Of a stretch of 32,000 nucleotides of DNA, positions 1 through 26,430 are shown piece by piece. Under the pieces are notes generated by a model, which saw nothing but the letters and a program-made list of their open reading frames with translations, made no database searches and was not told where the DNA came from. Source of the DNA: an archaeon (GTDB lineage Archaea; Asgardarchaeota; Thorarchaeia; Thorarchaeales; Thorarchaeaceae); the NCBI GenBank assembly GCA_024275415.1, contig JAJRZD010000025.1, forward strand, positions 1 to 32,000, written 5' to 3'. Position 1 is the first letter of the stretch. Each line of letters begins with the position of its first letter. Both the position numbers and the translations under genes were made by a program.

Positions 1-3000
1 AGAGTAACATATCTGGTGGAATGACGAATCCCCCACCAGGTCCGGTAGGAGTAGTGGGTTCGGGTGTCTGAGTCACAGTTCCGGCTTCAAACGGATCTGA
101 GTCAATCACATCAGTAAGACTGTACGAGTCTGTAACTCGCACCTGTACCGTGTAGTTTTTGATCAAGAATCCGGATGAGTCCCAATCGAAGGTCGTGGTT
201 GTAAGATCCGTTGCGATGAGCTGGTAGGTTTCACCACCGTCACCTGACAACAGAACTTCATAGGTATGAGTGTCTTGAGCGTTCAGGTCTGTGATGGACC
301 ACGAAATGGTCTTGGTCGCACCCTCGCCAGTAACTGATACGTCCACGAAGTGTGGAGCGAAGTAGTTCTGGAAGGTCACGGCTGCAAGGTTCATTTCAAA
401 GCCCATGTTAGTCCCCGTTGTCGCAACAATCTGAACCTGGAAGGTTCCGTTCTTCAGGAGGTCATAGGTGTCGAAGGTAACTTCGTTGCCTGTGGCCTTC
501 TCATAGATACCGACACGGGTATCCACGGTGACTTCGTATTCACCAGAAGCAAGGTCGTAGTCAAAGATACCAATAGCAATCATTCCACTGCGGTCTGCGG
601 TGAACGAGCCTTCTTCTGGATGAGCACCTGTTGCCATCTGATCTCCAAGCAGGTTGTTGCTGTATGACCAAGAAGAGTTGTCAGTGTCAGCCCACCATGC
701 CATGATATCACAGTCACCGTTGGTGAAGTCTACCACGACACTAACCTCATCACCTTCAACGATACCATCGACATACTCCCAAGCGAATTGAGAAGTGTCA
801 ATAGGACCGGTGAATGGATCATAGCTCGAGTCGGGGATGACAAGTGTTCCGCTATTCTGATAGAATACACCAGAGAGGAAGCCAATCTGGACACTTGTTA
901 CATCGAACTCGGGCATGTTCGGTAGGTTGAACGCTGGATAGGATACATTGACGACTGCATGGTCACCCCAGACGGTGTCACCGTCATCCCAAGTGAACAC
1001 ACCAGACCTGTCGTCTGTGGTGTAACTTAGAATCGGATCCTGGTTCGTCAGGGCATCGTAGAGCATCGCTTCCAGAGTGAACTCAACAGGCTGAGCGGTG
1101 GTACCGTTCTGTGCCAGTGGGTGCACTAGGAGGTAGTAGTAACCTGCGCCATCAATCGCAGCGAGTAGGGCTGTGCTTGTGGCTGTTTCAGCAGAGCTGG
1201 TAGCGAGTAGACCGTTCTCTGAATCATAGAGAGCGATGTACAAGTCACTTCCTTCGTCTGCGAACTCAGCACGGATACCGAGGTAAGCCGCAGTATCGTA
1301 TGCGTTGTAAAGCACATAGCTCCTGAAGTCCCAATCGTCTGGGTCTTCTTCCATCGAACCGAACAGCACATTGTCGTATGGGGTCATGTCAGCACCGTAG
1401 TCAGTGAACAAGGTATTGATGTTTCCACCATCCTCAGTTATGTTGTAGACTACTGTGTAGGCGTATGGTGCTATGAATGAACCGAAGTTGATGAATCCAG
1501 TGTAGATACCTGGATCTACAGGGTCTGGAACTGTCAACGTGATGTTGACTGAGGCAACAGCATTACCGTCGTCTGCAAAGGTAATCACTCCAGGGTCAGT
1601 AGCAGTGTAGGTAATGATAGTGACCGTGAAGTCATTTCCTGGAACAGCGGTCGCATTCCACCAGTCAGTGGCAACATCATGAACCGGGTCGTGAATGACG
1701 AGGGTCAAATCACCTGCAAGGGTTTCTGGAGCCCACTGCATGAGATTGATGTTACTGCCATCACTTGCGCTGGTCAGACGATGTAGTTCATCATAATTGG
1801 TAGTTGTCAGGTTGTAGAGGCTAGGCTTGCCATCACCAGACACATCCTCCCAATCATAGAGGAACATCCATGGATAAGCACCTGCAACATCGCCTTCGTC
1901 AAATGACACAACAATCTGTATCATATCTGCACCCATAACTGCTGCATAGTCAGTGCCAAGTGCCTCTGAGATGTTGAAGTAGCCGTACATCTGTTCGTTG
2001 CTAACGGTGTCGTTGTAGGAGAATGTGGTGTCCTGGAAAGTGAACGAGGCAGACATGTTGTAGAAGAAGGCAGTTGTGCCACCCCACGCCCATACCTCAT
2101 TAGGAGTTGTAAACAGATCCGCAGCATTATCATAGATGCCGTAGCTGACAGTCACCGAGTCTCCGGGCATGACCTGACCGAAGAATATCGCTCCATCGTA
2201 GTTCGCATCTGGGAATGCAACAGTGGTACTGTTCACATCACGAGGTACGTATGAACTGGGGAGGACACCCCAATATGCCCATGCGTCACCGATGAGTTGT
2301 GCGAAGTTGTACGAGGAATCTGTTGTTGCTCCCACAATCCCTACATTGTTAGCGGCGAAATCACATGCTGCTGCAGCATCGACTCTACCGAAGCCTTGGA
2401 TTGCGGCATCATAGCCCATGTCCTTAGCTGTTGATTGGATGATAGTCTTGACAACGAATGGGTTGTCACCACTTGCTGAATCGAAGTTGAGTGCGTCCAT
2501 CACGAGTGCTACAACACCAGCGGCAACAGGTGCGGCTTGGCTTGTACCAGCGAAGAGGGTTGTATTCGACTCAGTACCCCAAGTATCACCATAGTAGTCT
2601 GAATACCACGGCATACCTGAATAGCCTGCAAGTCCGGGAGCCAGTACATCAGGCTTTGGATAGCCTGTGAAGCTTGGACCACGGCTGCTGAAGGAAGCAA
2701 TGCCTTCGTATGGCTGAGTTGGGCCGTAGAGATATTCTAACCACATGCTCGCTGTCGAAGCACCGACCGTAAGGACGGCTGTGGCTGCACCGGGTGGACC
2801 GATGGTCATGTACCCAGCACCTTCGTTTCCGGCTGAGAAGACATGTAGAAGACCAGGATAACCATTATCGCTGTCAAGTATTCCTGGAGTTGACAGGATC
2901 TCCCATGTAAATGCGAGATAGTTCATCTGACTAGAGGGTGGAGTAATCCATCCCCATGAGTTTGTCACGAAGTCCGCCATGTGCGCACCTGTGTAGTTGA

Positions 3001-4663
3001 ACTCACCTGAGGTTTCATTGACCATTTCAAAGCCTGCTAGCCACAAGTAGCTGAAGTAGTCTGAAGCACCCGAGAGGGCACGCACAGAGATCATATCAGC
3101 ACCTGGAGCAATACCAGTCATGTTGACATAGCGGTCGTTATCCTCATTGTACCAGTCGTTGGCAACATCCCGTCCTACGACATGAATTGCAGTAGCAGTA
3201 CCGTGGCTACCGTCATCCCAGTAGAGGGAGAAGTCACCGTTCACGCTGAATCCTTGGAATATTGGATCTGAAGTGTTCCAGTCGGTGAAGCCAAAGGCAT
3301 CATATGCCCAACTGAGTGAGCCCAGACTGAAATCGTCGAGACCAACACCATCGTAGTTGTATGCAACGATTGGGTTGCTCATGTCATAGATCTCGCCTTC
3401 AGCGAATTCATCTACGAAGCTCCAGTCGAACTTGTTGTAGATGTAATCAAGATCACCTTCAGAGGTGTGTGACACATTGATGGAGTTCCAGTAGAATGCA
3501 TTTGTCCACATGTAGTTCCATGCGTCAGCATCATCCCAGTTGACCATCATGTGATAACCTTTGTCGGTACCATTGTAAACGAGGGCTGGTGCAAAGATCT
3601 TTGCGTATGGACCACTCTGTTGCTGGAATATCCAGTTGACCTGATAGTGAGTACCAGCAGTCAGATTCCCAGTGTCAGGAAGTGTCCAGTCCTGTTTTGT
3701 TTCCTCAAGCCAAGTGGCATTCATAGCTGCAAAACCATAACCTTCAATCCAGAAGTAGTTGTACAGCCAGATGAAACCGACACGGCTCTGGTATGGAACA
3801 CCAGGACCACCATCACCGTAAAGGTATCGGACACCGCCTCCATTGTTCAGGAGTGGATCCCAACCAGTCACATTCAGCTTGACATCACCATTATCATCAA
3901 TGTAGGTGAGCAGGTTGCCTTTCACGTCAACCCAATCGGTGATATTGTCAATGTAGCTGGCATTAGCATAATACCACATAGGTGTGATGCCTTCACCAGT
4001 GCCGTCGAAGGTACCAGTATTGTATGCATCCTGAAGCGCGGGATGACCGAAGTCAGCTCCGGTGTCGACGTGACCAACGGTAACTCCAGTCCCATCAAAA
4101 GCATGGGCCGCACCATTGTCAGCGCCAACAATGTCATAGATGTAGTCCATATCGACACCCTCACTTGGTATTGAAGGAGCAATGTCAATTTCCTTCACGA
4201 GGTCATCCATGACAGGTGTTCGCCACAGGTCTGCATCAATCAGACCGACGCCCTTGATCTTGGCAAGTTCAGTAACAGCCTCGGGACTACTAATAGTGAC
4301 CTTCAAGGTCTGGAAATAGCCCAAGTTCACAAACATGTCCACGGACACAACATCTCTGATAGCATCCATGTTCACATCTGGAGTGGTGACAACGATAGCG
4401 CTAACGCCATCCTTTGTTGAAACCATCTCATCTGTTACGACTCCAGTCTCAATCCATGAAGCCAAGACAGCGTCAATCTCTGGTGCAAAACCGGGTTGAT
4501 TCACGGTCTGATACCAGTTATTGAGCTTTTCTTGAGTTGCAGGAGCGAGACTGGGTGAGCTTGCCACTTCGGCTTGGGCAACAGGCCCAACTGGTGCCAT
4601 GAACACTGATAGTGTTAGCACAGCAATAAACAGCAGAACTGCCGATTTATTTGATAAGCTCAT
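1..4663 (-). CDS. Giant secreted S8 (pyrolysin-like) serine peptidase, >=1554 aa, 3' end beyond the window; absent from the ORF track
   Basis: Translated by hand. ATG at 4663 follows GAGGAG (4679-4674). Signal peptide MSLSNKSAVLLFIAVLTLSVFMAPVG. All catalytic motifs are in one frame: VGHVDTG (Asp 4066-4064), DDGSHGTATA (His 3205-3203), FSAGNEG, KPDVLAPG, FAGTSQAAPVAAG (~2550-2520). These are followed by beta-rich domains and a Thr/Pro linker (TVTQTPEPTTPTGPGGG) at the window edge. Confidence 0.93.
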   Translation of the reverse strand, partial: MSLSNKSAVLLFIAVLTLSVFMAPVGPVAQAEVASSPSLAPATQEKLNNWYQTVNQPGFAPEIDAVLASWIETGVVTDEMVSTKDGVSAIVVTTPDVNMDAIRDVVSVDMFVNLGYFQTLKVTISSPEAVTELAKIKGVGLIDADLWRTPVMDDLVKEIDIAPSIPSEGVDMDYIYDIVGADNGAAHAFDGTGVTVGHVDTGADFGHPALQDAYNTGTFDGTGEGITPMWYYANASYIDNITDWVDVKGNLLTYIDDNGDVKLNVTGWDPLLNNGGGVRYLYGDGGPGVPYQSRVGFIWLYNYFWIEGYGFAAMNATWLEETKQDWTLPDTGNLTAGTHYQVNWIFQQQSGPYAKIFAPALVYNGTDKGYHMMVNWDDADAWNYMWTNAFYWNSINVSHTSEGDLDYIYNKFDWSFVDEFAEGEIYDMSNPIVAYNYDGVGLDDFSLGSLSWAYDAFGFTDWNTSDPIFQGFSVNGDFSLYWDDGSHGTATAIHVVGRDVANDWYNEDNDRYVNMTGIAPGADMISVRALSGASDYFSYLWLAGFEMVNETSGEFNYTGAHMADFVTNSWGWITPPSSQMNYLAFTWEILSTPGILDSDNGYPGLLHVFSAGNEGAGYMTIGPPGAATAVLTVGASTASMWLEYLYGPTQPYEGIASFSSRGPSFTGYPKPDVLAPGLAGYSGMPWYSDYYGDTWGTESNTTLFAGTSQAAPVAAGVVALVMDALNFDSASGDNPFVVKTIIQSTAKDMGYDAAIQGFGRVDAAAACDFAANNVGIVGATTDSSYNFAQLIGDAWAYWGVLPSSYVPRDVNSTTVAFPDANYDGAIFFGQVMPGDSVTVSYGIYDNAADLFTTPNEVWAWGGTTAFFYNMSASFTFQDTTFSYNDTVSNEQMYGYFNISEALGTDYAAVMGADMIQIVVSFDEGDVAGAYPWMFLYDWEDVSGDGKPSLYNLTTTNYDELHRLTSASDGSNINLMQWAPETLAGDLTLVIHDPVHDVATDWWNATAVPGNDFTVTIITYTATDPGVITFADDGNAVASVNITLTVPDPVDPGIYTGFINFGSFIAPYAYTVVYNITEDGGNINTLFTDYGADMTPYDNVLFGSMEEDPDDWDFRSYVLYNAYDTAAYLGIRAEFADEGSDLYIALYDSENGLLATSSAETATSTALLAAIDGAGYYYLLVHPLAQNGTTAQPVEFTLEAMLYDALTNQDPILSYTTDDRSGVFTWDDGDTVWGDHAVVNVSYPAFNLPNMPEFDVTSVQIGFLSGVFYQNSGTLVIPDSSYDPFTGPIDTSQFAWEYVDGIVEGDEVSVVVDFTNGDCDIMAWWADTDNSSWSYSNNLLGDQMATGAHPEEGSFTADRSGMIAIGIFDYDLASGEYEVTVDTRVGIYEKATGNEVTFDTYDLLKNGTFQVQIVATTGTNMGFEMNLAAVTFQNYFAPHFVDVSVTGEGATKTISWSITDLNAQDTHTYEVLLSGDGGETYQLIATDLTTTTFDWDSSGFLIKNYTVQVRVTDSYSLTDVIDSDPFEAGTVTQTPEPTTPTGPGGGFVIPPDMLL

Positions 4664-4686
4664 TTTTCTCTTTCTCCTCACTTTTC

Positions 4687-4815
4687 AATAGAGAACAGAG
4701 AGATATCAGAACACGAGTCGACTAAGACATGCTCTGACCGCAATAAACCTATACCTGCCGAGAACGTTGCCCCGTCGGGCCGGCAAGCATATCTCCTCAT
4801 TCCGCGTTCTCTACT
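4687..4815 (-). promoter_or_regulatory. Candidate structured 5' leader RNA of the giant S8 gene
   Basis: Nested complementary segments: 4815-4806/4696-4687, 4796-4789/4706-4699, 4788-4781/4760-4753, 4780-4777/4772-4769 and 4736-4728/4715-4707. All non-Watson-Crick pairs are G-U on the minus strand. Confidence 0.55.
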
Positions 4816-4851
4816 TCCAATGTGATTACTACTCTGACGTGCAATAGGGAC

Positions 4852-4857
4852 TATTAA
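4852..4857 (-). promoter_or_regulatory. Putative TATA box (TTAATA) of the giant S8 gene
   Basis: TTAATA on the minus strand about 37 nt upstream of the structured leader. The spacing fits a start site near 4826-4830. Confidence 0.4.
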
Positions 4858-5046
4858 GCGTTATGCCACTCCATAGGAGTAATAAGCATTAACAACCACC
4901 GTTTTTAATCTTAATACCAATATGAGGTAGAATGTAGACAAATTAATAGTTCTAATCACTCTTCTTGATAAACTGTGGGTCGATACTTCTTAATAGATAT
5001 GGGTCTATTCAATTAAGGGGTTAACCACCCAATAAGATAATGTCAG

Positions 5047-6168
5047 TCATTGGCGCGCCATCTTCTTTATGCTATCGACAATCTCATGGGCCATCATGAC
5101 AGCCCCGATAAGTTCCACCTTTGGAGTGTCGTCCTTCTCAGCTGGTGAGCCAGCTATCCTACCCATTGACCGACCAAGTCCCTCAATCAGACTTGATAAT
5201 GCCTCCTTTGTGGACGGTTCGAGCCCGCTTGACTCAATCTGCGATATCAGCTGTGCCAAATCAGAAATGACGCTGTCTGAAACCTCTGACGCGGTTTCAG
5301 CTCTTCGTGTATAATCTTCCAGCTGAGCAGTCAACGCATTGATCTTGTCGTTGAGTTCCTTGACCCTTTCTGAATCCACGGCCGGTGTTGTGGACGCTTC
5401 GGCAGTAACCTTCGATGATTCCATCATAAGACGGATCTCATCTATTTCCGATTGCAGACGCCCGATAGTTTCATCCTTCTTGGAGATCGTTTCAAGAAGC
5501 TCCTGTTCACGGGTCGCATCCTCAGAATCGGATTTCAGTTTCGCTTCCATCTCAGTGATGGCTGTTTCCCGCTCACCAACAGCTTCCTTCAATGCGACAA
5601 GCTCGGCTTGTAAAGCATCAAGGTTCTCTTCCTTCTCTTTGAGGAATTCATTTAGTTTCTTGTTCTCGGCCTCAAGTTCCTTCTTTGTCTTAGCCAAGCC
5701 CTCAGATATGTCTGACAACTCCTTGAGCTTATCCCGCAAAAGAACAAAGTCGGGATCCGGTGGCGAAATAACATAATTGGCCATAAATGTAAAGATGACA
5801 ATTGTTCCAATCAGGTAAATCATGAAGTAAGCGATGTTATATGTGAACACCATGTGAGTGACTCTTTGGAGGATGGCCACAAATACATCATAGGATCCAA
5901 AAGAAACATCTGTAGGCATCCAATACATCGAACCGAATCCTGCATACAGTATCATTATGAATGCTCCAGCCGCTCCAAGGAGAGCAATAAAGATGATGAG
6001 ATTCCTACGGAGTTCCTTAGACGGAAGATACCTCTGATAGAGCAGAAGAAGAATCGCACCGAATACTAGTGGCAACGCAAAAGGGATGACTGCAGCAAGA
6101 TTACTCCCAAACTCTGTGGGAAATTCGATTAGTGACACAAGACTGGGATTCATACTGGGATTTACCAA
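5047..6168 (-). CDS. Membrane protein with 3 predicted TM helices and a long C-terminal coiled coil (373 aa)
   Basis: AGGAGG lies 9 nt before the TTG start. Hydrophobic segments at aa ~24-44, 57-77 and 111-134 are followed by E/K-rich heptads (LKELSDISEGLAKTKKELEAENKKLNEFL...). Confidence 0.85.
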   Translation of the reverse strand: MVNPSMNPSLVSLIEFPTEFGSNLAAVIPFALPLVFGAILLLLYQRYLPSKELRRNLIIFIALLGAAGAFIMILYAGFGSMYWMPTDVSFGSYDVFVAILQRVTHMVFTYNIAYFMIYLIGTIVIFTFMANYVISPPDPDFVLLRDKLKELSDISEGLAKTKKELEAENKKLNEFLKEKEENLDALQAELVALKEAVGERETAITEMEAKLKSDSEDATREQELLETISKKDETIGRLQSEIDEIRLMMESSKVTAEASTTPAVDSERVKELNDKINALTAQLEDYTRRAETASEVSDSVISDLAQLISQIESSGLEPSTKEALSSLIEGLGRSMGRIAGSPAEKDDTPKVELIGAVMMAHEIVDSIKKMARQ

Positions 6169-6754: not shown

Positions 6755-9661
6755 ATGCCTAGACTAACGACACGAGGATTCAACTATTTCCTGCTTGGTA
6801 CCTTGCTGGCACTTCTGATATTACCCTCTGTGAGTGCTATCATTCCCTTTGCAGAAAGCCAAGGTAAAACAAATACCACTATCATCGCCCCGGATCTTGA
6901 GAGAATGATGAACGGAGCTACAGCGGACGAGATGCTCCCTCTCACACTTGAATTCGAATCGAGCTATTCCCCGTATTTGATGGAGGAGTTGTTGAACAAA
7001 GTGTCAATCAGTGGCATCGAGATACGAAACATCTTCAGATACATACCCTTTGTTTCATTGTACGCAACCCAAGAAGCGATTATGCAACTAGTTAGGATCG
7101 AGGGGGTCGTTTCGGTCAACTATGACAATAAGATTGAAACTTATCCACTGACTGTAGCAAACCCACCCGCATCAGGTAGTATCGATGCTGGCTACGTACC
7201 CCCTACAGAGATACTTGATGCAGAGGGACTATGGGATCAAGGATATAATGGTACAGGAGTGACTGTTGCTGTCATCGATAGCGGGGTGGATGGAAGTCAT
7301 CCTGACTTGAATGGAAAGATCATAGGATTCTATGACTTGGTAAATGATGAAAGTGACCTTAACGCCACGGATGGCATCACTTCATATGATGATAACGGGC
7401 ACGGAACAGCCGTTTCATGGTTAATAACAGGTTCTGGGAAGGGTACAGATTATGCATACTCAGGGATTGCAGTGGGTGCAAAAATCCTAGCAATCAAGAC
7501 ACTTGATGAGGAAGGCGCTGGTGATGATTCAATCATCGCCCAAGGCATCGAATTTGCAATTTCCTCCAATGTCGATGTCATAAGCTTGAGTATAGGTGGT
7601 GAGTGGTTAGATAACCCATTTTATTCAGATGCTTCTGCCAAGGCAGCGAAAATTGCTGTTGCGGCTGGAATCATCGTGGTTGTGGCTGCTGGGAACTCGG
7701 GTCCTGCCACAGGCACAATCACATCACCAGGTATCGTCCAAGAGGTAATAACAGTAGGAGCCTCAATTGGTGCAGTCGATGTCGTGTCATTCAGTAGCAG
7801 GGGTCCGGTATACAGAGAAACTACTGCACCAAGAGGAGCCGTTGCAAAGCCGGACGTACTTGCTCCAGGCTATGGTATCTTAACAGGTATTGCTTCTGGT
7901 GCGTCTCCTTACGACTATTTGCCATACAACACCACACAGTTTGATGCAGATTATACACTCTTCTCCGGAACATCAGCAGCAGCACCACAGATTGCGGCGC
8001 TGGCTGCCCTTCTTCTTGATAAACATCCCGCATTGACTCCTATTGAGGCGAAGACCGCGTTGATGAAGGGAGCCACTGACCTTGATGCAGATTCGCTTGA
8101 GCAAGGATATGGACTTGCTAATGTCACAAGGGCATCTGAGATAATCAGTGACACAGCGGGACTGATGACCCTAATCACACCTCTCAGATATCCAACACTC
8201 CCAGGCACTAGTCAGGTATTGATTGTGGGCGACTCGAGAAGCCCAATGAATGCCACGGTCATCTCAACTGTGAACAGAGGAGTGGCAACGATTGAAACAG
8301 AAGGCAATGCATCCCAGTTCGTCATAACCAGTCAGAGTGTCGACGTGGGTGTCGGATATAGCTATTTCAACATCGGACTGGAGGTTCCACATAATCTCCC
8401 GCTGAGTGCGCTGGGCAAGTATGTGGGAACCTTGGACTTGATAGTTGGGACAGAAATAATTGCATCGATGAAACTCGACCTGCTAATCACAACCTATGGC
8501 GGAAAGATGCTGGTGGACATGGGACATCATTCTAGCACAGATCCGGATGACGTATCATATTACAGATATTTCTCGGAGTACCTACGGGAGCAAGGTATGG
8601 TCATTGGCGAATATCCAGAGAATTGGGAGGAACAAATAGGTTTCTTGAGAGCGTTTGATGCAGCAGCATTATCCTCTACCGAGGTGCTCATGATAATGGA
8701 TACGGAGCAGTCGTATAGCCAGAATGAGATTGACCTGATCCATTCATTTGTTGAGAATGGGGGCATCCTACTGATATTGTCCGAAGGTTTTGATTCCGAT
8801 GCTAATATGCCAGCCTTTGCTTTCGAGTCGTACAACCGGATACTAGAGCCTTATGGGATTCAAGTTGAAGATAATTGGATAGGAGAAAATGGTGGTCAGG
8901 TCTATGGGGCAGATATCGGAGGCGCTGTGGATGAACACCCACTTACCGAAGGTGTACGCAATCTGTATGTGCTGAATGGAGGGACATTCTCAATAGACTC
9001 GACTGTTTCAGGCGCAAAAGGACTTGTGTGGACTGATTCGGCTAAGACTCATGCACTTGTTGCAGTCGGAGAGGCTGGGAAAGGCAAAGTGATCGCAATT
9101 TCAGATGGATCAATGCTTTACGATTCTTCGATATACGATGCTGAACTAAACAATGCTGACAACCTAAAACTCTTGGAGAATGTAGCAAAGGCAATTGTCC
9201 CCAATCTGCCGAGAATCTATGATGTTGCTCTCAATTATGGTGAGGTCGGAGAGGCTGCGAATCTCACGGCTTACATTTTTGACGATAATATAGATACTGT
9301 GAACATATCGCTAACCGGCCCTGATGGTGAAGAAATTGACGCTCCGCTGAATCAGGAATTTGGATATAAATACACAATTGACTTTGTCTTGGAATCTACA
9401 GGATTCTATGATATCACGGTGACTGTGACTGACCTTGATGGATATGTACGAACCTATGCGAAGACTATTCTAATCCCAGTCAAAGCTCTTGATGACGCAG
9501 TCCTAATGGGAGTTGTGTACGGATTGCTAGGAATAGTCGGAATCGCACTAGCGTATGTGGGAATCCTGAAATTCGGAAGAGGGAGAAAGTTGAGGCGTCA
9601 TGTTGACCGTGAATGGTCTCCGCGGTGGGAAACTGATGATTCGCCCCCATCTATTGAATAG
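6755..9661 (+). CDS. Membrane-anchored S8 subtilase with Site-1-protease-like architecture (prodomain, S8, Ig-like, GATase/DUF4350-like, Ig-like, TM, basic tail)
   Basis: The ATG at 6755 (GGATGGT upstream) is preferred over the TTG at 6716. Signal peptide present. VAVIDSG (Asp 7277), DDNGHGT (His 7400), [15 protein letters not shown] (Ser 7973). GATase-like domain at ~8500-9200. TM [24 protein letters not shown], then [10 protein letters not shown]. Confidence 0.93.
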   Translation: [968 protein letters not shown]

Positions 9662-10932: not shown

Positions 10933-13900
10933 CTATGACACCTCACTGAATCGGGTCTTCCGTAGGTAGAGCAGTACTACTCCCGCCACAAGACCAATAC
11001 CCCCTATAAGGATTACATAGGAGTAGTCTTCAGCAATGGTCAGTTGTCCGAGCAGGAGTGAAACCTCTTCACCGCCAATGGATATTGCCACCGCATACAC
11101 ATCATAGACCCCAGAGGTCATACCCGATGGAGAGATGTCAAATTGGTATTCGCCATTATCCCCGGACAGGGTAATATTGAACATTAATCCATAAGATAGT
11201 TGAAGTGACAGCCGCACCTCAGCCGCGAGTAGGTGACCTTCTACTGTGACATTACCCGTGATGCGCTCTGAAACAAGCCACCCTATACGGACTACACTCT
11301 GGTCAAGATGGCCCTCGACAATCCTCAGTTCCACTGAGCCACCACCAGAGAGAATCACTGGAAGAAATGTCAAATCGTGGGTCCCGTCTGTAAGCATAAT
11401 CATCAGGGAAAGTGTCCCCAGAGATGAGAACTCTGATGTATCAACTTGAGTCTGTATTGAAAGAAGGGCAGATTTGGTAGTTGAGTTTAGCACAGTCAAA
11501 CTTCCGTCAATGACATCAAACTGGACGCTTAGCTGATTTGAGGTGGTATCCTTGTCAGAGAGTCGGAGATTGAAAGTATAAAGCTCATCAGAGGACTCCA
11601 TGTCCAATGTTTCGATCAGCGGAGCCCACTGGTCAGTCAACTGAACAGTAGAGGTTTCATCAACAGTTGTATTCGTGGCATTCCCTGTGAAGAATTCAAT
11701 TCGTCCAAAGTCAGTCCCCAAATCGTGTTCTATAGCAACATAGACGAAATTCGAGGAGTTGCTCCAACTTGTGGTTCCAGCAGCGACATACATGCCACCT
11801 TGCCAAGTGTATATATTTGCAACATTGTTACTGATGTTTACCTTCATATCGACTCCTAAAAGACCCGTGGACATGGAATTGTCTGTGTCCCAGTTCAATG
11901 TAATGACATTGGTTCCAGAATAGTCAGGAGAACCACGAAGACCAACTCGAAACCATGTCGTTTCATTTGTCAGATATACACTGACATTCAGGATGTCTAG
12001 TCCAGAATCAACACTCGGATCTGTGACATCGACCGCATTATAGGGTATTCCGTTCCACGCAGGAAAGCCTGTTGGAGAAAGCACATGCTGTACAGACCAG
12101 ACAGGATTCACAAAGCCAAACCCGAAAGAAGGAGAGGGGGTTTCATAATGACCATCAACACCACCAGACCCTTGAAGAAGGGCAGATAATGTCCGCCATC
12201 CATCGGTATCCTCAGATGCGTCTCTTATGAGCGCGACGACACCTGCTGCATGAGGAGCAGCCATACTTGTTCCAGATCGAGTGGCCCACAGCGAGGTGAC
12301 ACTATTGCGTGCTGCCCTAATTGCATCCCCGGGAGCGCTGACAACGGGTTTAGGAATCCCATCGATTCTGGGGCCTATACTTGAGGTGGAACTAAGCCCT
12401 AGTGTGACCTCATTGTAAGCTGTGACAGTGATGCCGATATCAGCTGTGCCTGGCGAGCTGATAGTATGAGAGAAGTCAAGCTTGCTGGTGAATTTCAAGT
12501 TCAGTCCCGCCCAGTTATTGTCCCATGCATACGCGTGGATTGTGATATCATCGCCTTCAGGATTTGAAACAGTAAGAGTCCAGCTGCCCATATCCCAGAA
12601 ATGATCCTGCGCGGACACCTGAACAATGACCCTGTTCATGCCCTTGATACTTCGGTCGGGGAAAACATAAGCCGAGATATTGTCGTGTTCTAGGACAAAT
12701 GGATTCGAAACAATCTCGTTGAAGGCTCCAAGGTCAATCTTTTCGTCAGAGTTCGGCGGAGTAAGAATCACATGTTCATCGTCATCCTCACTCTGCCATA
12801 GGACGTTTAGGAACGAGTAATCAGGAGGGTTGCTGACAGCCAAAAGGGCACTCTCTTCGCCACCGGAGGGGACGTTGAAGCTTGCATGCTTAGGACGACC
12901 GCCAAGATTCCCTGCGGCAAGTGTCGAAAGCACTCCGGATTGCATGAAGACCTCAGTAATCGCAAGATCCTCGTAGTCGGTTCCGTCAAGAAAACCGAGA
13001 TAGCTTGAGAATGACATGTTTATCACATCTGCGTCATTCTCAGCAGCGAATGCGATCCCATCGAGCACATCCTCCGAGCTGAGAGAACTTTTGATGATGA
13101 TAAGGTCTGCTCCTGGGGCCACACCCACATAATCAGTCATCCCAATCTGCCCTCCAGCAATGATGGACGCTACATGAGTCCCATGTCCATTAGTATCGAC
13201 AACAGATATGGCGTCAGTGAGGTTCACTCCTCTGACATAGACCTTTGATGTTATCTGGTCGTAGAGGATGGCAACCTTCGATTCACCCAGGATGACGACC
13301 TTCTCGCTGTTCAGATCGATGAGCCCGTTATCATCAGCATCGACTCCTCCAAGCCACCTCTCACCAGCAGCGAAATCGAACCTGCCATTATCATTCAAGT
13401 CAATGAACATATAGTCTTCGCCATAATCAATTAATGCACCGCCTTGCCCTGTGATTGTGGCAATTGGGCCCTCATCGGAATCAGCAATCGAATCGTTGTC
13501 GATGTCTATATAGAAGTCCGAGCCATCGAAAACGACAGCGAATGGATCTGAGGATTTCCTCCACAATGACGGGTGTAACCATGATGCCCCGGTGTCGATA
13601 ACTGCAACACGGGTGCCAGAGCCATCTATCCCTTTGCCATCGTCTTCCAGATCATTCCAGACTTCAGGCGCTTTGATTGCAGGCACAGATGATGCTATGG
13701 ATGGAAAGAACTGCTTTGATCCTGACGATGCCTGTATCAGTCCAACCCTGTCAAGCTCTTCAAGGGCGATAACATCGGACACCTTGACAAGATAGATGCC
13801 ACCTATATGCACTGGTTGTCCCCCCCGTTTCTTGAACTCGATCCCTAGTGACTCTGCATATTGAATTTCAGCAGGAGTGAGTTGTGCGTGAAAGCGGAGG

Positions 13901-23739: not shown

Positions 23740-26430
23740 CTATTCATTCCGTTTCCGAGAGATGATGCAACCCAATACCACAGCCACAAGCACCATGGCC
23801 AACATGATTGCTAGGACCAGATAGTTTGGGCCTGTAGGGAGTGTTGTGGGTTCTGTTGTATCAGTACCGCTTGTGCCGTTTGTAGTGGTAGATGTAGTCC
23901 CTGATGTCGTGGTTGTCGATGACCCAGAGTCCGATACCAGATAGGAGTAATCCTGAGAAACAGCAATATTCCCGACAGTGTCATTGGCATGTATCCGGAA
24001 GGTCACAAGTGTACCATTCTGTAATTGAGGGATTGTCGCCCCATACACTCCACCGGTCAACGACATGGTCAGATTGACCCAGTGTGTTCCGTTGAAGTAC
24101 TCAAGAATAACAGTGTCAACACCGCTCAGGTCATTGACAGCGACCTCGATGAGTACAGTGTCCGTCGAATCCGGATTTGCAGGATTGATGACTGGAGTAC
24201 CAATGGTCGGTGCGGTCGTATCGGGAACAGGTGTGACTTGCTGAACGGCTGCGTAAGCATCCAATTTACCATATCCCCATATTGCATTGGGTGTGCCAGA
24301 TGTGAACTGGTCATCGAGTGCTGTAGCCTTGATGACATTAGCGATGTCCGAGCCACTGGTGGAATTCACCTGTAACATCAATGCGGCAGTTCCAGCAACA
24401 TGGGGACCTGATGCACTAGTCCCACTGAAGAGCTGGTATGAGCCGAACCTCCCCGAGAAGGGCAACGCGCCATATGCGTTATACCACGTATACCATAGGG
24501 ATTCATTGCTGTAATCAGTGATGATGTCATAACCACCAGGGGCTGCGATTCCTTGTTTCAATACCCCATCAATTCGAGGGCCTCGTGATGAGAAACTAGC
24601 AATGTCCCCGATTGTACCAGCTGACACCAAGTCGCGCACTCTGTATGATGCGACACTCAGTGCACTATCGGCCGTGGATGGCCATGTTATCTCATAATCA
24701 TTTGAGATGTCTGTTTTCCATACTGCGCCTCCAGTCCACGAGCTCTTGTCATCAGAAATATAGCAATGGAACGTTGTGTTTTGAGGTGTTGTTACGTTCA
24801 CCTGGTTAAAAGGTGGGCCATTGGGAGCGCTTGTATCAGGAAGTCCAACAGTTGGCGCATAGATATGAATGCCAAGCATCCTTGTTGATCGAGATGAGGT
24901 AGAGATGAACGACTCAACGTATAGCGTATTCGGACCGAGTACAATGGGTGGCTCAAGTACGAAGTTCTGGTAGCCTGAGCCGGGATGAAGGTATATGGTC
25001 TGAAGTCCTCCACCCCATGCAGCCATGTTCATAATCACGCTGAAATTGGATAGGCTGAAATCGGTATTATTCACCGACAGTATAGTGATATATACATCCT
25101 CGATTTTCGGATCCTGATTAGGAACGTGGAAGTCCACCTGTTGGGCTGCGTTTGCAGAGGTTCGAAGCAATGCGTGTTTGTCCTTACCTCCCAGATTGCC
25201 GCTTGGGACAATGACGGGGACGCCCGATGAAACGATTGTGTCAATTAGGGTTTCTGCAGCAGAGCTTCCATCGAGGTACTGATACGTCCATGACCCAATC
25301 TCGATGAGAATAACGTCAGCGCCGTGGTTGTATGCCCATGTCAGTCCCTCTTCTACTGTCAGCCAATCATTGCTGTTTCCTAGGACTTTAATCATCATGA
25401 GTTCCGCATCAGGGGCTACACCGACATACTTCCGGTAGCCCAGTTGCCCGCCAAGCAAGATGCCTGAAACAGCAGTGCCGTGACCGTCTGTGTCTTTGTG
25501 TGTGCTAGAAGTAAGATTCGTACTCCGATCCCAAACCCGAATGTTCCTTGAAGGAGTCCCATCTGCCTCCACGATATATTTAGTCTTGGGAGTGTTCAGC
25601 ATCACTAGCTTCTCACCCACATCCAACAAATCATTCGAGTTCGTATCGTTGACCACAAAGAAGGGCTCACCGAGGTCGTACACACCGTTTTGTGTCACAT
25701 TATCAACCCAGAGCCAGTCGGTTGTAGCATTCATGTTACCATCGGCATCTAGGTCAAGGATGTAGAATACCTCATCAGCAGACATAGAGCCGTTGCCGTC
25801 GAGGTCGACGTAATCACTCCCATTCGTCGGTACAGAATCTGGAAATACATCTACCCAGTCATAGGTGGAACCATTGGCGAACCAGAAATCGGGATGTGTC
25901 CAGTCAATACCCGAATCAAGGTCTGCGATAACTATCCCTTTTCCGGTCACGGATCTATTCAGGCTATCCAATGTCTGCCAGACAAGCGAAGCATTGATCT
26001 CTGGAATTGAAACGTCGCGTGCTGCTTCACTATGAGTGCTGGTAGTTTGGGGAGCAATGAAAGTAAATTCAAATGAGGTCATGAAGAGAGCGATGGCATC
26101 CCGATCCCCTCGGATCAAGTAGTAATTGCCCAAGCGGCTTGAAGATGGTGTTCCGAAGCTAAAGCGAATTCCAATCGAAGCCAAATCACGTACAGCTCCT
26201 TCACTAAGTGAATCCCCAAAACTTACGACCAAGGGGATATCTGAACCGAATTGACTTGACAGTGCATCAATGTCAAGATCAATCATCGGACTACTATTGT
26301 AGGATGTCCCTTCATCAGGCACAACATAGGGGACTATCCAGAAAGAGGAAAGTAATATTGTGGCGCATAGTAGGATGGATATTCTCCTCAAGGTGAAAAC
26401 CTCCAATGGTGACATGGACAGGATATACAT
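23740..26430 (-). CDS. Secreted membrane-anchored S8 subtilase, paralogue of 10933-14109 (896 aa)
   Basis: IADLDSG, DTDGHGTAVS, PSGNLGG, FSGTSASGPHVAG; Ig-like domain, Ser/Thr linker, TM YLVLAIMLAMVLVAVVLGCII plus SRKR; many N-x-S/T sequons. Confidence 0.93.
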   Translation of the reverse strand: MYILSMSPLEVFTLRRISILLCATILLSSFWIVPYVVPDEGTSYNSSPMIDLDIDALSSQFGSDIPLVVSFGDSLSEGAVRDLASIGIRFSFGTPSSSRLGNYYLIRGDRDAIALFMTSFEFTFIAPQTTSTHSEAARDVSIPEINASLVWQTLDSLNRSVTGKGIVIADLDSGIDWTHPDFWFANGSTYDWVDVFPDSVPTNGSDYVDLDGNGSMSADEVFYILDLDADGNMNATTDWLWVDNVTQNGVYDLGEPFFVVNDTNSNDLLDVGEKLVMLNTPKTKYIVEADGTPSRNIRVWDRSTNLTSSTHKDTDGHGTAVSGILLGGQLGYRKYVGVAPDAELMMIKVLGNSNDWLTVEEGLTWAYNHGADVILIEIGSWTYQYLDGSSAAETLIDTIVSSGVPVIVPSGNLGGKDKHALLRTSANAAQQVDFHVPNQDPKIEDVYITILSVNNTDFSLSNFSVIMNMAAWGGGLQTIYLHPGSGYQNFVLEPPIVLGPNTLYVESFISTSSRSTRMLGIHIYAPTVGLPDTSAPNGPPFNQVNVTTPQNTTFHCYISDDKSSWTGGAVWKTDISNDYEITWPSTADSALSVASYRVRDLVSAGTIGDIASFSSRGPRIDGVLKQGIAAPGGYDIITDYSNESLWYTWYNAYGALPFSGRFGSYQLFSGTSASGPHVAGTAALMLQVNSTSGSDIANVIKATALDDQFTSGTPNAIWGYGKLDAYAAVQQVTPVPDTTAPTIGTPVINPANPDSTDTVLIEVAVNDLSGVDTVILEYFNGTHWVNLTMSLTGGVYGATIPQLQNGTLVTFRIHANDTVGNIAVSQDYSYLVSDSGSSTTTTSGTTSTTTNGTSGTDTTEPTTLPTGPNYLVLAIMLAMVLVAVVLGCIISRKRNE

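What the first reader, a model, noticed from the sequence alone, without database searches (positions are those of the whole stretch)
4687..4815. Multibranch RNA structure in the 5' leader of the giant protease gene
On the sense (minus) strand the ~130 nt between a TTAATA box and the RBS fold into nested stems. These are AGUAGAGAAC/GUUCUCUAUU (10 bp), GGAGAUAU/AUAUCUCU (8 bp), GCUUGCCG/CGGCAGGU (8 bp) enclosing GCCC-GACG-GGGC, and CAGAGCAUG/CGUGUUCUG (9 bp). All six non-canonical pairs are G-U in this orientation and would be A-C on the other strand, which favours selection at RNA level. The two inner stems can extend only by taking bases from the 8-bp stem (mutually exclusive registers), and the outer stem ends about 7 nt before GAGGAG. 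I do not recognise it as a known Rfam family. Inference: an undescribed cis-regulatory or mRNA-stabilising leader, possibly a switch.
Basis: partly seen in the sequence, partly recalled or inferred. Interest (0 to 1): 0.7.

Follow-up and report, generated by a model that had tools for sequence, protein, structure and literature searches.

The report
Conserved folded leader of Thorarchaeota protease
The messenger RNA of a giant secreted protease in Thorarchaeota (Asgard archaea) begins with a 164-base folded, untranslated leader that every genus of the family has kept and that no RNA catalogue lists; it most likely protects the message and keeps its ribosome site open, and whether it also senses a signal is unproven.

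Summary
On the minus strand, window 4827-4664 folds far better than shuffled sequence (z -4 to -5; the opposite strand z about -2), and all six non-canonical pairs are G-U.

The element is a family-wide RNA. Covariance models find one copy per genome in all 16 genera of the family (labelled Thorarchaeota in public records), always before orthologues of the same ~1,600-aa S8 subtilase. A reduced form occurs in the sister family. No Rfam family matches.

The anatomy has these parts:
- a TATA box 30 nt upstream of an invariant 5' AAUCAC;
- a 4-bp closing helix, UCAC/GUGA, that abuts the Shine-Dalgarno site;
- helix P1 (GAGAAC/GUUCUC);
- two hairpins that vary freely but covary;
- two conserved purine junction strands (GAGGAGA and GGAGGU) that resemble ribosome-binding sites.

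Covariation does not support a switch that buries the ribosome site, and an upstream reading frame is not conserved.

My best reading is a default-ON leader that stabilises the mRNA and recruits ribosomes (confidence 0.45). The main rival is a switch controlled by a ligand, protein or small RNA (0.3). No expression data exist.

This scan had already found the same leader on other Thorarchaeota genomes, with a similar verdict.

The parts
4852..4857 (-). TATA box TTAATA (with conserved BRE-like bases just upstream)
   Evidence: Its first T lies 29-31 nt (30 nt in 34 of 50) before A1 of AAUCAC in every homologue. The 22-24 nt spacer is not conserved.
4822..4827 (-). Invariant AAUCAC: the predicted transcript 5' end. 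UCAC (4825-4822) is the 5' strand of helix P0.
   Evidence: At least 90% conserved in 51 sequences. It pairs with GUGA in nearly all 51 unconstrained MFE folds by my reading of the output. The start site is inferred from the TATA distance and has not been mapped.
4806..4815 (-). P1 5' strand AGUAGAGAAC (core GAGAAC)
   Evidence: 8 of 10 P1 pairs show double-sided changes across 51 sequences, and 96% of cells are paired. Examples: UGGAGAAC/GUUCUCCA, AGGGAAC/GUUUCCCU and CACAGAG/CUCUGUG.
4792..4805 (-). Junction strand J1/2, GCGGAAUGAGGAGA. The GC and GAGGAGA parts are at least 90% conserved. GAGGAGA copies the SD heptamer.
   Evidence: Consensus. Median predicted unpaired probability is 0.58, against 0.36 for the leader as a whole.
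4750..4791 (-). Hairpin P2, variable in sequence. In this genus it carries a bulge CGUUCUC (4760-4766) complementary to GAGAACG.
   Evidence: 9 of 9 basal pairs covary, each with several pair types. I saw the bulge copy of GUUCUC only in 5 genera.
4739..4749 (-). Junction strand J2/3, GGUUUAUUGCG. The family consensus is (U)GGAGGU(U/A)U; this genus has the weaker form AGGU.
   Evidence: GGAGGU is a perfect 6-nt complement of the family's 16S 3' end ...GGAUCACCUCCU.
4705..4738 (-). Hairpin P3, variable in sequence and length (23-63 nt)
   Evidence: 9 of 9 modelled pairs covary, with 86% of cells paired but many gaps. The leader interior folds into exactly two hairpins in 44 of 51 sequences.
4697..4704 (-). 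Junction strand J3/1, AUCUCUCU.
   Evidence: Pairing with GGAGAUAU is genus-limited: 77% paired and no double change.
4687..4696 (-). P1 3' strand GUUCUCUAUU (core GUUCUC, at least 90% conserved)
4678..4681 (-). GUGA, the 3' strand of helix P0, directly 5' of the SD
   Evidence: Invariant in the family, with a median unpaired probability of 0.08. No covariation is possible, so the helix is predicted only. It is not extended by covarying pairs.
4661..4677 (-). Shine-Dalgarno GGAG (4677-4674), A-rich spacer and start codon AUG (4663-4661)
   Evidence: The genome uses SD sites, with a 4-mer peak at -15 to -11.
2..4663 (-). Gene for a signal-peptide-bearing S8 subtilase. It runs off the contig end; orthologues are 1,570-1,640 aa.
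   Evidence: Pfam PF00082, E = 8e-32. Every leader copy examined precedes a homologue.

Best explanation
Window 4827-4664 (minus strand) is the 5' untranslated leader of the subtilase mRNA. It is a member of an uncatalogued RNA family that is single-copy and specific to Thorarchaeota.

Shown here:
- A three-way junction of P1, P2 and P3, with strong covariation.
- Invariant junction strands.
- A fixed promoter 30 nt upstream of the first leader base.
- Exclusive linkage to one orthologous protease gene.

Inferred mechanism: a default-ON leader that raises and stabilises expression. Three features would contribute:
- The first bases of the transcript (UCAC) pair with GUGA right next to the ribosome-binding site, and P1 closes the rest. 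The 5' end would therefore be tucked into a compact fold that hinders decay dependent on a free 5' end.
- The SD, the A-rich spacer and the AUG would stay single-stranded.
- The two exposed SD-like junction strands (GAGGAGA and GGAGGU) may act as extra docking sites for the 16S 3' end, in the manner of STAB-SD or a ribosome standby site.
For: Structure and strand:
- z = -5.0 and -4.06 on the sense strand, against -2.3 and -1.77 on the antisense strand.
- Across 51 sequences, 93.5% of cells are paired against 77.8 +/- 0.6 in shuffles. 30 of 36 pairs have double-sided changes. Slid controls give 36-48%.
- 161 G-U cells make the sense strand 93.5% paired and the antisense strand 84.3%.

Distribution:
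- Model R1 finds one hit in each of 49 of 86 family genomes, including 21 of 23 high-quality ones.
- With model R2 and the pattern search, all 16 genera are covered.
- In a pattern scan of 185,579 species genomes, only Thorarchaeota/Asgard-labelled records pass the model.
- The leader is always followed by the S8 orthologue.

Default-ON reading:
- Unconstrained MFE folds give P0 plus P1 with a free SD in nearly all 51 leaders, by my reading of the printed folds.
- P1's 3' strand is transcribed before the SD.
- The TATA-to-AAUCAC distance is 29-31 nt in 50 of 50 sequences.
- The sister-family orthologue has a reduced leader that keeps an outer helix near the 5' end plus P1, z = -5.5.

Ribosome docking and decay:
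- The 16S 3' end is ...GGAUCACCUCCU.
- SD usage in this genome is clear: 6-mer matches at -20 to -3 in 10% of ORFs against 1.3% in a control window.
- The genome encodes three beta-CASP nucleases.

Against: - There is no transcript, start-site, half-life or expression evidence. No RNA run holds the stretch.
- P0 is only 4 bp and invariant, so it cannot be tested by covariation, and covarying pairs do not extend it.
- When 40 nt of coding sequence are included, the SD is only moderately accessible in the ensemble (median unpaired probability 0.49).
- Simple protection would not need nucleotide-level conservation of GAGAACGC, GAGGAGA and GGAGGU across a family in which the protein falls to 27% identity. 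That pattern is more typical of a specific binding site.
- That archaeal 5'-to-3' decay is blocked in this way in Asgard archaea is extrapolated from Bacilli.
Confidence: 0.45

Rival explanations
1. A regulated translational switch. A small molecule, a protein or a C-rich small RNA binds the conserved junction (GC...GAGGAGA and GGAGGU) and decides whether P1 forms. When P1 is open, its 3' strand UUCUCY pairs with the SD region GGAGAA and blocks initiation. The layout resembles the adenine 'add' ON-riboswitch.
For: - The element is a three-way junction whose conserved bases are concentrated in the junction, while its helices covary freely.
- P1 is conserved in sequence, unlike P2 and P3, as expected if its 3' strand must serve two partners.
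- Folded alone, the 3' part pairs the P1 3' strand with the SD in 46 of 51 sequences, median -6.1 kcal/mol.
- Two lineages show matching changes: G013 UUACUC with GAGUAG, and G010 UUCUCGGU with ACUGAGGA.
- In 5 genera, including this one, a second GUUCUC copy in the P2 bulge could capture the P1 5' strand.
- Earlier scan notes report C-rich, anti-SD-like small RNAs in these archaea. I did not test this.
Against: - The own-versus-cross-genus duplex test shows no covariation of the anti-SD:SD helix (difference +0.08 kcal/mol, p = 0.66).
- Where the SD region diverged (genera g2, g9, g10, g12), the complementarity is lost rather than repaired.
- P1 is long (8-10 bp), forms first during transcription, and wins in nearly all MFE folds.
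- The element has one copy per genome and one target gene, with no regulon.
- The P2-bulge copy is absent in most genera.
- No ligand or partner has been identified.
Confidence: 0.3
2. A DNA-level element. The conserved blocks (AATCAC, GAGAAC...GTTCTC, GAGGAGA) are operator or initiator sites for a transcription factor, and the RNA fold is incidental.
For: - AATCAC sits at the predicted start site and could be an initiator element.
- GAGAAC and GTTCTC form an inverted repeat that is conserved in sequence as far as the sister family.
Against: - Compensatory changes keep pairing in P1, P2 and P3 over a spacing of 50-120 nt that varies between lineages.
- 161 G-U cells are tolerated on the sense strand only.
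- The folding z-score is strand-specific.
Confidence: 0.05
3. Control by a leader peptide or upstream reading frame, or a separate small RNA gene lying upstream of the protease.
For: In this genome, an AUG in J1/2 opens a 40-codon frame that ends at the UGA of GUGAGG.
Against: - That frame is open in only a minority of the 51 homologues. Its phase and length are not conserved, and the AUG is absent in several genera.
- No terminator separates the fold from the SD.
- P0 and P1 tie the 5' end to the SD region.
Confidence: 0.03

Closest known systems
5' stabiliser leaders of Bacilli: the aprE (subtilisin) leader, STAB-SD of cryIIIA, and the ermC and hbs leaders (reviewed in PMC3997798; PMC5737220)
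   Same: - A long untranslated leader before a heavily expressed or secreted protein gene; aprE is also a subtilase.
- The 5' end is sequestered in a helix.
- There are SD-like sequences complementary to the 16S 3' end that have no start codon.
- The true SD is left open.
   Different: - There is no sequence or structural homology.
- The organism is an archaeon, with different nucleases (beta-CASP enzymes rather than RNase J1/Y).
- The fold is a three-way junction with two SD-like junction strands, not one hairpin plus one SD.
- A stabilising effect has not been measured here.
S-layer gene 5' UTRs (e.g. Lactobacillus slpA). This was the earlier follow-up's choice; I know it from memory only and did not read it here.
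   Same: A structured, long 5' UTR with a base-paired 5' end, on the mRNA of an abundant surface protein.
   Different: - It is unrelated in sequence.
- The slpA leader is a simple stem-loop.
- High expression of the Thorarchaeota protease is assumed, not shown.
Three-way-junction translational riboswitches such as the add adenine riboswitch (purine class, Rfam RF00167; from my own knowledge)
   Same: - The P1-P2-P3 junction architecture.
- Conserved junction bases with covarying helices.
- A P1 3' strand that can alternatively pair with the SD region a few nucleotides downstream.
   Different: - There is no match to any Rfam model.
- The junction strands are 11-18 nt long and purine-rich.
- P1 is 8-10 bp and stable without a ligand.
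- The alternative helix does not covary.
- There is a single target gene and no known ligand.

Membership tests
Any Rfam 15 family | Match to a covariance model at or near its gathering score | tested here: not met
   A permissive cmscan of 4400-5300 gave only three hits, at E about 5 and 14-18 bits, far below their gathering scores. Only one of them (a microRNA model) touches the start of the leader, and it is meaningless in an archaeon.
Riboswitch (generic) | Conserved aptamer fold with covarying helices and conserved junction or loop bases in a 5' UTR | tested here: met
Riboswitch (generic) | Conserved alternative pairing (an expression platform) that occludes the SD or forms a terminator | tested here: not met
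   The potential UUCUCY:GGAGAA helix exists in 46 of 51 sequences. It shows no covariation and is lost where the SD region diverged. No terminator is present.
Riboswitch (generic) | Direct binding of a small-molecule ligand | not testable with these tools
   This needs in-line probing, ITC or similar.
Riboswitch (generic) | Association with genes of one metabolic theme, usually several loci per genome | tested here: not met
   There is one copy per genome, always before the same S8 protease orthologue.
STAB-SD-type stabiliser | SD-like sequence in the 5' UTR, complementary to the 16S 3' end, with no start codon at initiation distance | tested here: met
   GGAGGU (6 nt) and AGGAG within GAGGAGA (5 nt) match the 16S end ...CACCUCCU. 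No conserved reading frame follows them.
STAB-SD-type stabiliser | The SD-like sequence increases mRNA half-life through 30S binding | not testable with these tools
   No expression data are available.
5'-terminal stem-loop stabiliser (aprE/ompA type) | Base pairing that begins within a few nucleotides of the transcript's 5' end | tested here: inconclusive
   P0 would pair nucleotides 3-6 of the predicted transcript. However, the start site is inferred from the TATA spacing only, and P0 is an invariant 4-bp helix. The sister family has a 9-bp outer helix near the predicted 5' end.

The most novel reading that the evidence does not exclude
The leader is a true sensor: an Asgard-specific riboswitch, or a protein- or small-RNA-operated switch. 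Its purine-rich three-way junction would bind a signal of protein or peptide availability, or one of the C-rich anti-SD-like small RNAs reported in these archaea. Binding would gate translation of the cell's main extracellular protease by choosing between P1 and pairing of the P1 3' strand with the SD. That would be the first cis-regulatory RNA sensor class known only from Asgard archaea.
Probability: 0.25. Interest if true: 0.8.

Novelty: new member of a known kind. Interest (0 to 1): 0.55.

Why it matters
Almost nothing is known about post-transcriptional control in Asgard archaea, the closest prokaryotic relatives of eukaryotes. Very few structured cis-acting mRNA elements are described for any archaeon.

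This leader is a clean case with strong covariation. It is single-copy and tied to one gene, the large secreted subtilase that probably feeds these protein-degrading sediment archaea. It can go straight into RNA catalogues as a new family. It also gives a defined 164-nt object for probing, reporter assays and ligand or partner screens.

Its three copies of a ribosome-binding-like heptamer, and its 5' end paired beside the real ribosome site, suggest an archaeal counterpart of the stabiliser leaders of Gram-positive bacteria. That idea is testable.

Tried and rejected
- **Rfam.** The scan at E up to 10 found nothing usable.
- **Expression.** One run of unstated type holds only 0.07 of the sampled words and no RNA holder is listed, so no start-site or expression test was possible and read laying was not used.
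- **Upstream reading frame ending at the UGA of GUGAGG.** Not conserved.
- **Anti-SD:SD alternative helix.** Present by composition, but without covariation.
- **Extension of P0 by covarying pairs.** None found.
Limited to one genus.
- **P2-bulge pseudoknot or alternative pairing** (a lead from earlier notes). I saw it in only 5 of 16 genera.
- **K-turn reading of the junction.** I checked by eye only. The GA positions are not consistently adjacent to P2, so I dropped it.
- **MAFFT/RNAalifold on genus g6.** Hairpins P2 and P3 were not aligned in register, so no junction pairing could be tested.
- **R2 hits outside the family** (G128, G140, G157, G169). On inspection they are not leaders.
- **My first 16S 3'-end pattern, typed from memory.** It matched nothing. 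A shorter pattern worked.
- **Scan of non-coding DNA in this genome for UCUCCUC/ACCUCC partners.** It returned mostly the antisense of other genes' SD sites.
- **Ensemble accessibility of the SD with coding sequence included.** Only moderate (median 0.49), so not decisive.
- **Second leader copy in this genome.** Not found. The 41%-identical paralogue on contig C110 has coding sequence upstream and no leader.

Full report
**1. The observation**

The gene on the minus strand starts at AUG 4663 and runs off the contig end. It encodes a subtilase with a signal peptide (Pfam PF00082, E = 8e-32).

| Stretch | Strand | Energy | z-score | Shuffles as good |
|---|---|---|---|---|
| 4687-4815 | minus | -54.3 kcal/mol | -5.0 | 0 of 200 |
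| 4687-4815 | plus | -33.8 kcal/mol | -2.3 | 7 of 200 |
| 4661-4827 | minus | -59.6 kcal/mol | -4.06 | 0 of 200 |
| 4661-4827 | plus | -37.1 kcal/mol | -1.77 | 7 of 200 |

A permissive Rfam scan found nothing meaningful.

**2. Conservation**

- BLAST-level searches found the leader in 4 of the 6 other genomes of the genus, at 74-83% identity. They also found its 5' and 3' blocks in other genera.
- A motif pattern hit 33 of 86 family genomes, and some of those hits were chance.
- Model R1, built from the five genus sequences, recognised exactly the true sites among the fetched loci.
- In whole genomes, R1 found one hit in each of 49 of 86 genomes. These include 21 of the 23 high-quality genomes and cover 14 of 16 genera.
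- Model R2, built from 51 sequences, added genus g14 (G019) and another g3 genome. Genus g8 had been found by the pattern. So all 16 genera have the leader.
- Outside the family, R2 gave only weak hits in 125 other genomes of the phylum. On inspection these are not leaders.
- A pattern scan of one genome for each of 185,579 species gave 98 stretches, of which 80 were returned as loci and tested. R2 gave strong matches (58-128 bits, plus one copy truncated at a contig end) in 32 of them, all labelled Thorarchaeota, Promethearchaeota or 'uncultured archaeon'. The bacterial pattern matches scored nothing or only weakly: one Planctomycetia locus at 25 bits and one Acidobacteriia locus at 20 bits. 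This also confirms independently the taxon given in earlier scan notes.
- Every leader copy examined is followed by a homologue of the same protease. Protein identity ranges from 65% down to 27%, so the leader core is better conserved than the protein.
- This genome has one leader. Its 41%-identical paralogue on another contig has none.

**3. Anatomy**

In order along the RNA:

- A TATA box (CTTAATAG) whose first T lies 29-31 nt before the first leader base in 50 of 50 sequences. The spacer is unconserved. This places the box centre near -26/-27, the usual archaeal position, so the start is predicted at A1 of AAUCAC (window 4827).
- 5'-AAUCAC.
- 6-10 variable nucleotides.
- P1 5' strand, (G)U(A/G)GAGAAC.
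- J1/2: GC, then 3-7 nt, then GAGGAGA.
- Hairpin P2.
- J2/3: (U)GGAGGU(U/A)U...
- Hairpin P3.
- A short J3/1.
- P1 3' strand, GUUCUC(U/C)A.
- 6-12 nt.
- GUGA-GGAG, an A-rich spacer, and AUG.

UCAC (nt 3-6) pairs with GUGA in nearly all 51 unconstrained MFE folds, by my reading of the printed output. I call this helix P0. The interior folds into exactly two hairpins in 44 of 51 sequences.

**4. Covariation**

On the 51-sequence alignment, 93.5% of cells are standard pairs, against 77.8 +/- 0.6 in shuffles and 36-48% when partners are slid. 30 of 36 pairs show double-sided changes, against 19.5 +/- 1.6.

| Helix | Pairs with double-sided changes | Note |
|---|---|---|
| P1 | 8 of 10 | |
| P2 | 9 of 9 | |
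| P3 | 9 of 9 | many gaps |
| P0 | none possible | essentially invariant |

The alignment was fitted to the model, which favours the structure, but the margins are large. P1 variants can also be read directly from the sequences: UGGAGAAC/GUUCUCCA, AGGGAAC/GUUUCCCU and CACAGAG/CUCUGUG.

The 161 G-U cells make the sense strand 93.5% paired and the antisense strand 84.3%.

**5. The sister family**

The full-length orthologue in the one genome of the sister family has a reduced leader. It has a TATA box, a 9-bp outer helix near the predicted 5' end, the same P1 sequence (GGAGAGAACU/AGUUCUCUCU), one hairpin, and a GGAG in an internal loop. Its z-score is -5.5. So the element is older than the family, and both the 5'-proximal closing helix and the P1 sequence are its oldest parts.

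**6. Tests of mechanism**

(a) Upstream reading frame. The 40-codon frame seen here is not conserved in phase, length or start codon. I rejected it.

(b) Switch.
- Folded alone, the 3' part pairs the P1 3' strand with the SD in 46 of 51 sequences, median -6.1 kcal/mol.
- However, a duplex test comparing own-genus with cross-genus pairs shows no covariation (+0.08 kcal/mol, p = 0.66). Complementarity decays where the SD region diverged. Only g5 and g8 show matched changes.
- P1 is long and is completed before the SD is transcribed.
- A second GUUCUC copy in the P2 bulge, a lead from earlier notes, could trap the P1 5' strand. I saw it in only 5 genera.
- So a switch is possible but not supported.

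(c) Ribosome-like motifs.
- The family's 16S rRNA ends ...GGAUCACCUCCU.
- GGAGGU in J2/3 is a perfect 6-mer match to it. GAGGAGA in J1/2 is identical to the true SD heptamer, which gives a 5-mer match.
- This genome clearly uses SD sites, and 6-mer matches are rare away from start codons: 10% of ORFs at -20 to -3, against 1.3% in a control window.
- Both junction strands are predicted to be more exposed than the leader average: 0.58 and 0.52 against 0.36. GUGA is paired (0.08). The SD is intermediate (0.49). The spacer and AUG are open (0.70).

(d) Nucleases. The genome encodes three beta-CASP proteins. From my own knowledge, this family includes the archaeal 5'-to-3' exonucleases.

**7. Interpretation**

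What is shown is a new, single-copy, gene-specific structured 5' leader RNA, conserved in all 16 genera of the family and present in reduced form in the one sister-family genome examined.

The most likely function (0.45) is a default-ON leader for stability and translation. The 5' end would be tucked into P0 and P1, the SD left open, and the extra SD-like tracts would recruit or park 30S subunits. This is analogous to the aprE, cryIIIA (STAB-SD), ermC and hbs leaders of Bacilli (PMC3997798; PMC5737220).

The strict conservation of the junction bases and of the P1 sequence is not fully explained by that reading. It keeps a ligand-, protein- or small-RNA-operated switch alive (0.3).

**8. Prior knowledge**

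Literature searches found no description of this element. Earlier notes of this scan had already found the same leader on other Thorarchaeota genomes and reached a similar verdict. I re-derived that verdict independently. I add the following:
- the coverage of all 16 genera;
- the reduced form in the sister family;
- the promoter-spacing argument for the start site;
- the 16S comparison;
- the negative covariation test for the switch helix.

Noticed in passing
window 5047-6168 (minus strand); homologues in L009-L038 and L069-L078: The gene just upstream encodes a 373-aa protein with N-terminal membrane helices and a long coiled coil, and has no solid Pfam hit. It is syntenic with the leader and protease, on the same strand, in every locus that reached far enough upstream (28 rows, 40-65% identity). 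It may be a functional partner of the protease.
   Followed up: partly
L010, L027, L030, L034 (G043, G080, G083, G090; also G008, G089, G092): A different conserved element shares the GAGAACG...GGAGGAGA words. It is a hairpin, GGGGCC(A/G)GAGAGAACGCUGGAAGGAGGAGAG...GGCCCC, followed by a conserved AAGAAGUAUUUAAGCAAAUCUUGUUUGAG stretch. It occurs 1-3 times per genome in genera g3 and g5. It is not matched by the leader models.
   Followed up: no
L183/L184 (G042:C2, about 61712-61810, minus strand): The 16S rRNA gene of G042 carries an insertion of about 75 nt between ...GGUAUCCGUAG and the terminal CUGCGGAUGGAUCACCUCCU. The insertion contains repeated GUCACAUUUCGUGAC-type hairpins and looks like an intron.
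   Followed up: no
G000 contig C110:16282-20811 (minus strand): A 41-43% identical paralogue of the protease lies in a 2,587-aa open frame. The frame continues upstream into what looks like a solute-binding-protein-like domain. It has no leader.
   Followed up: partly
L193 (G025:C3:18350-18950, minus strand): The sister-family orthologue has a reduced, single-hairpin version of the leader with the same P1 sequence. Upstream of it lies an extremely AT-rich region of about 300 nt.
   Followed up: partly
window 7679-8191 (+), 12217-12522 (-), 24241-24603 (-): Three further S8-like catalytic regions lie in the same 32-kb window (tblastn). The locus is therefore a cluster of subtilase genes, and only the largest one carries the leader.
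   Followed up: no
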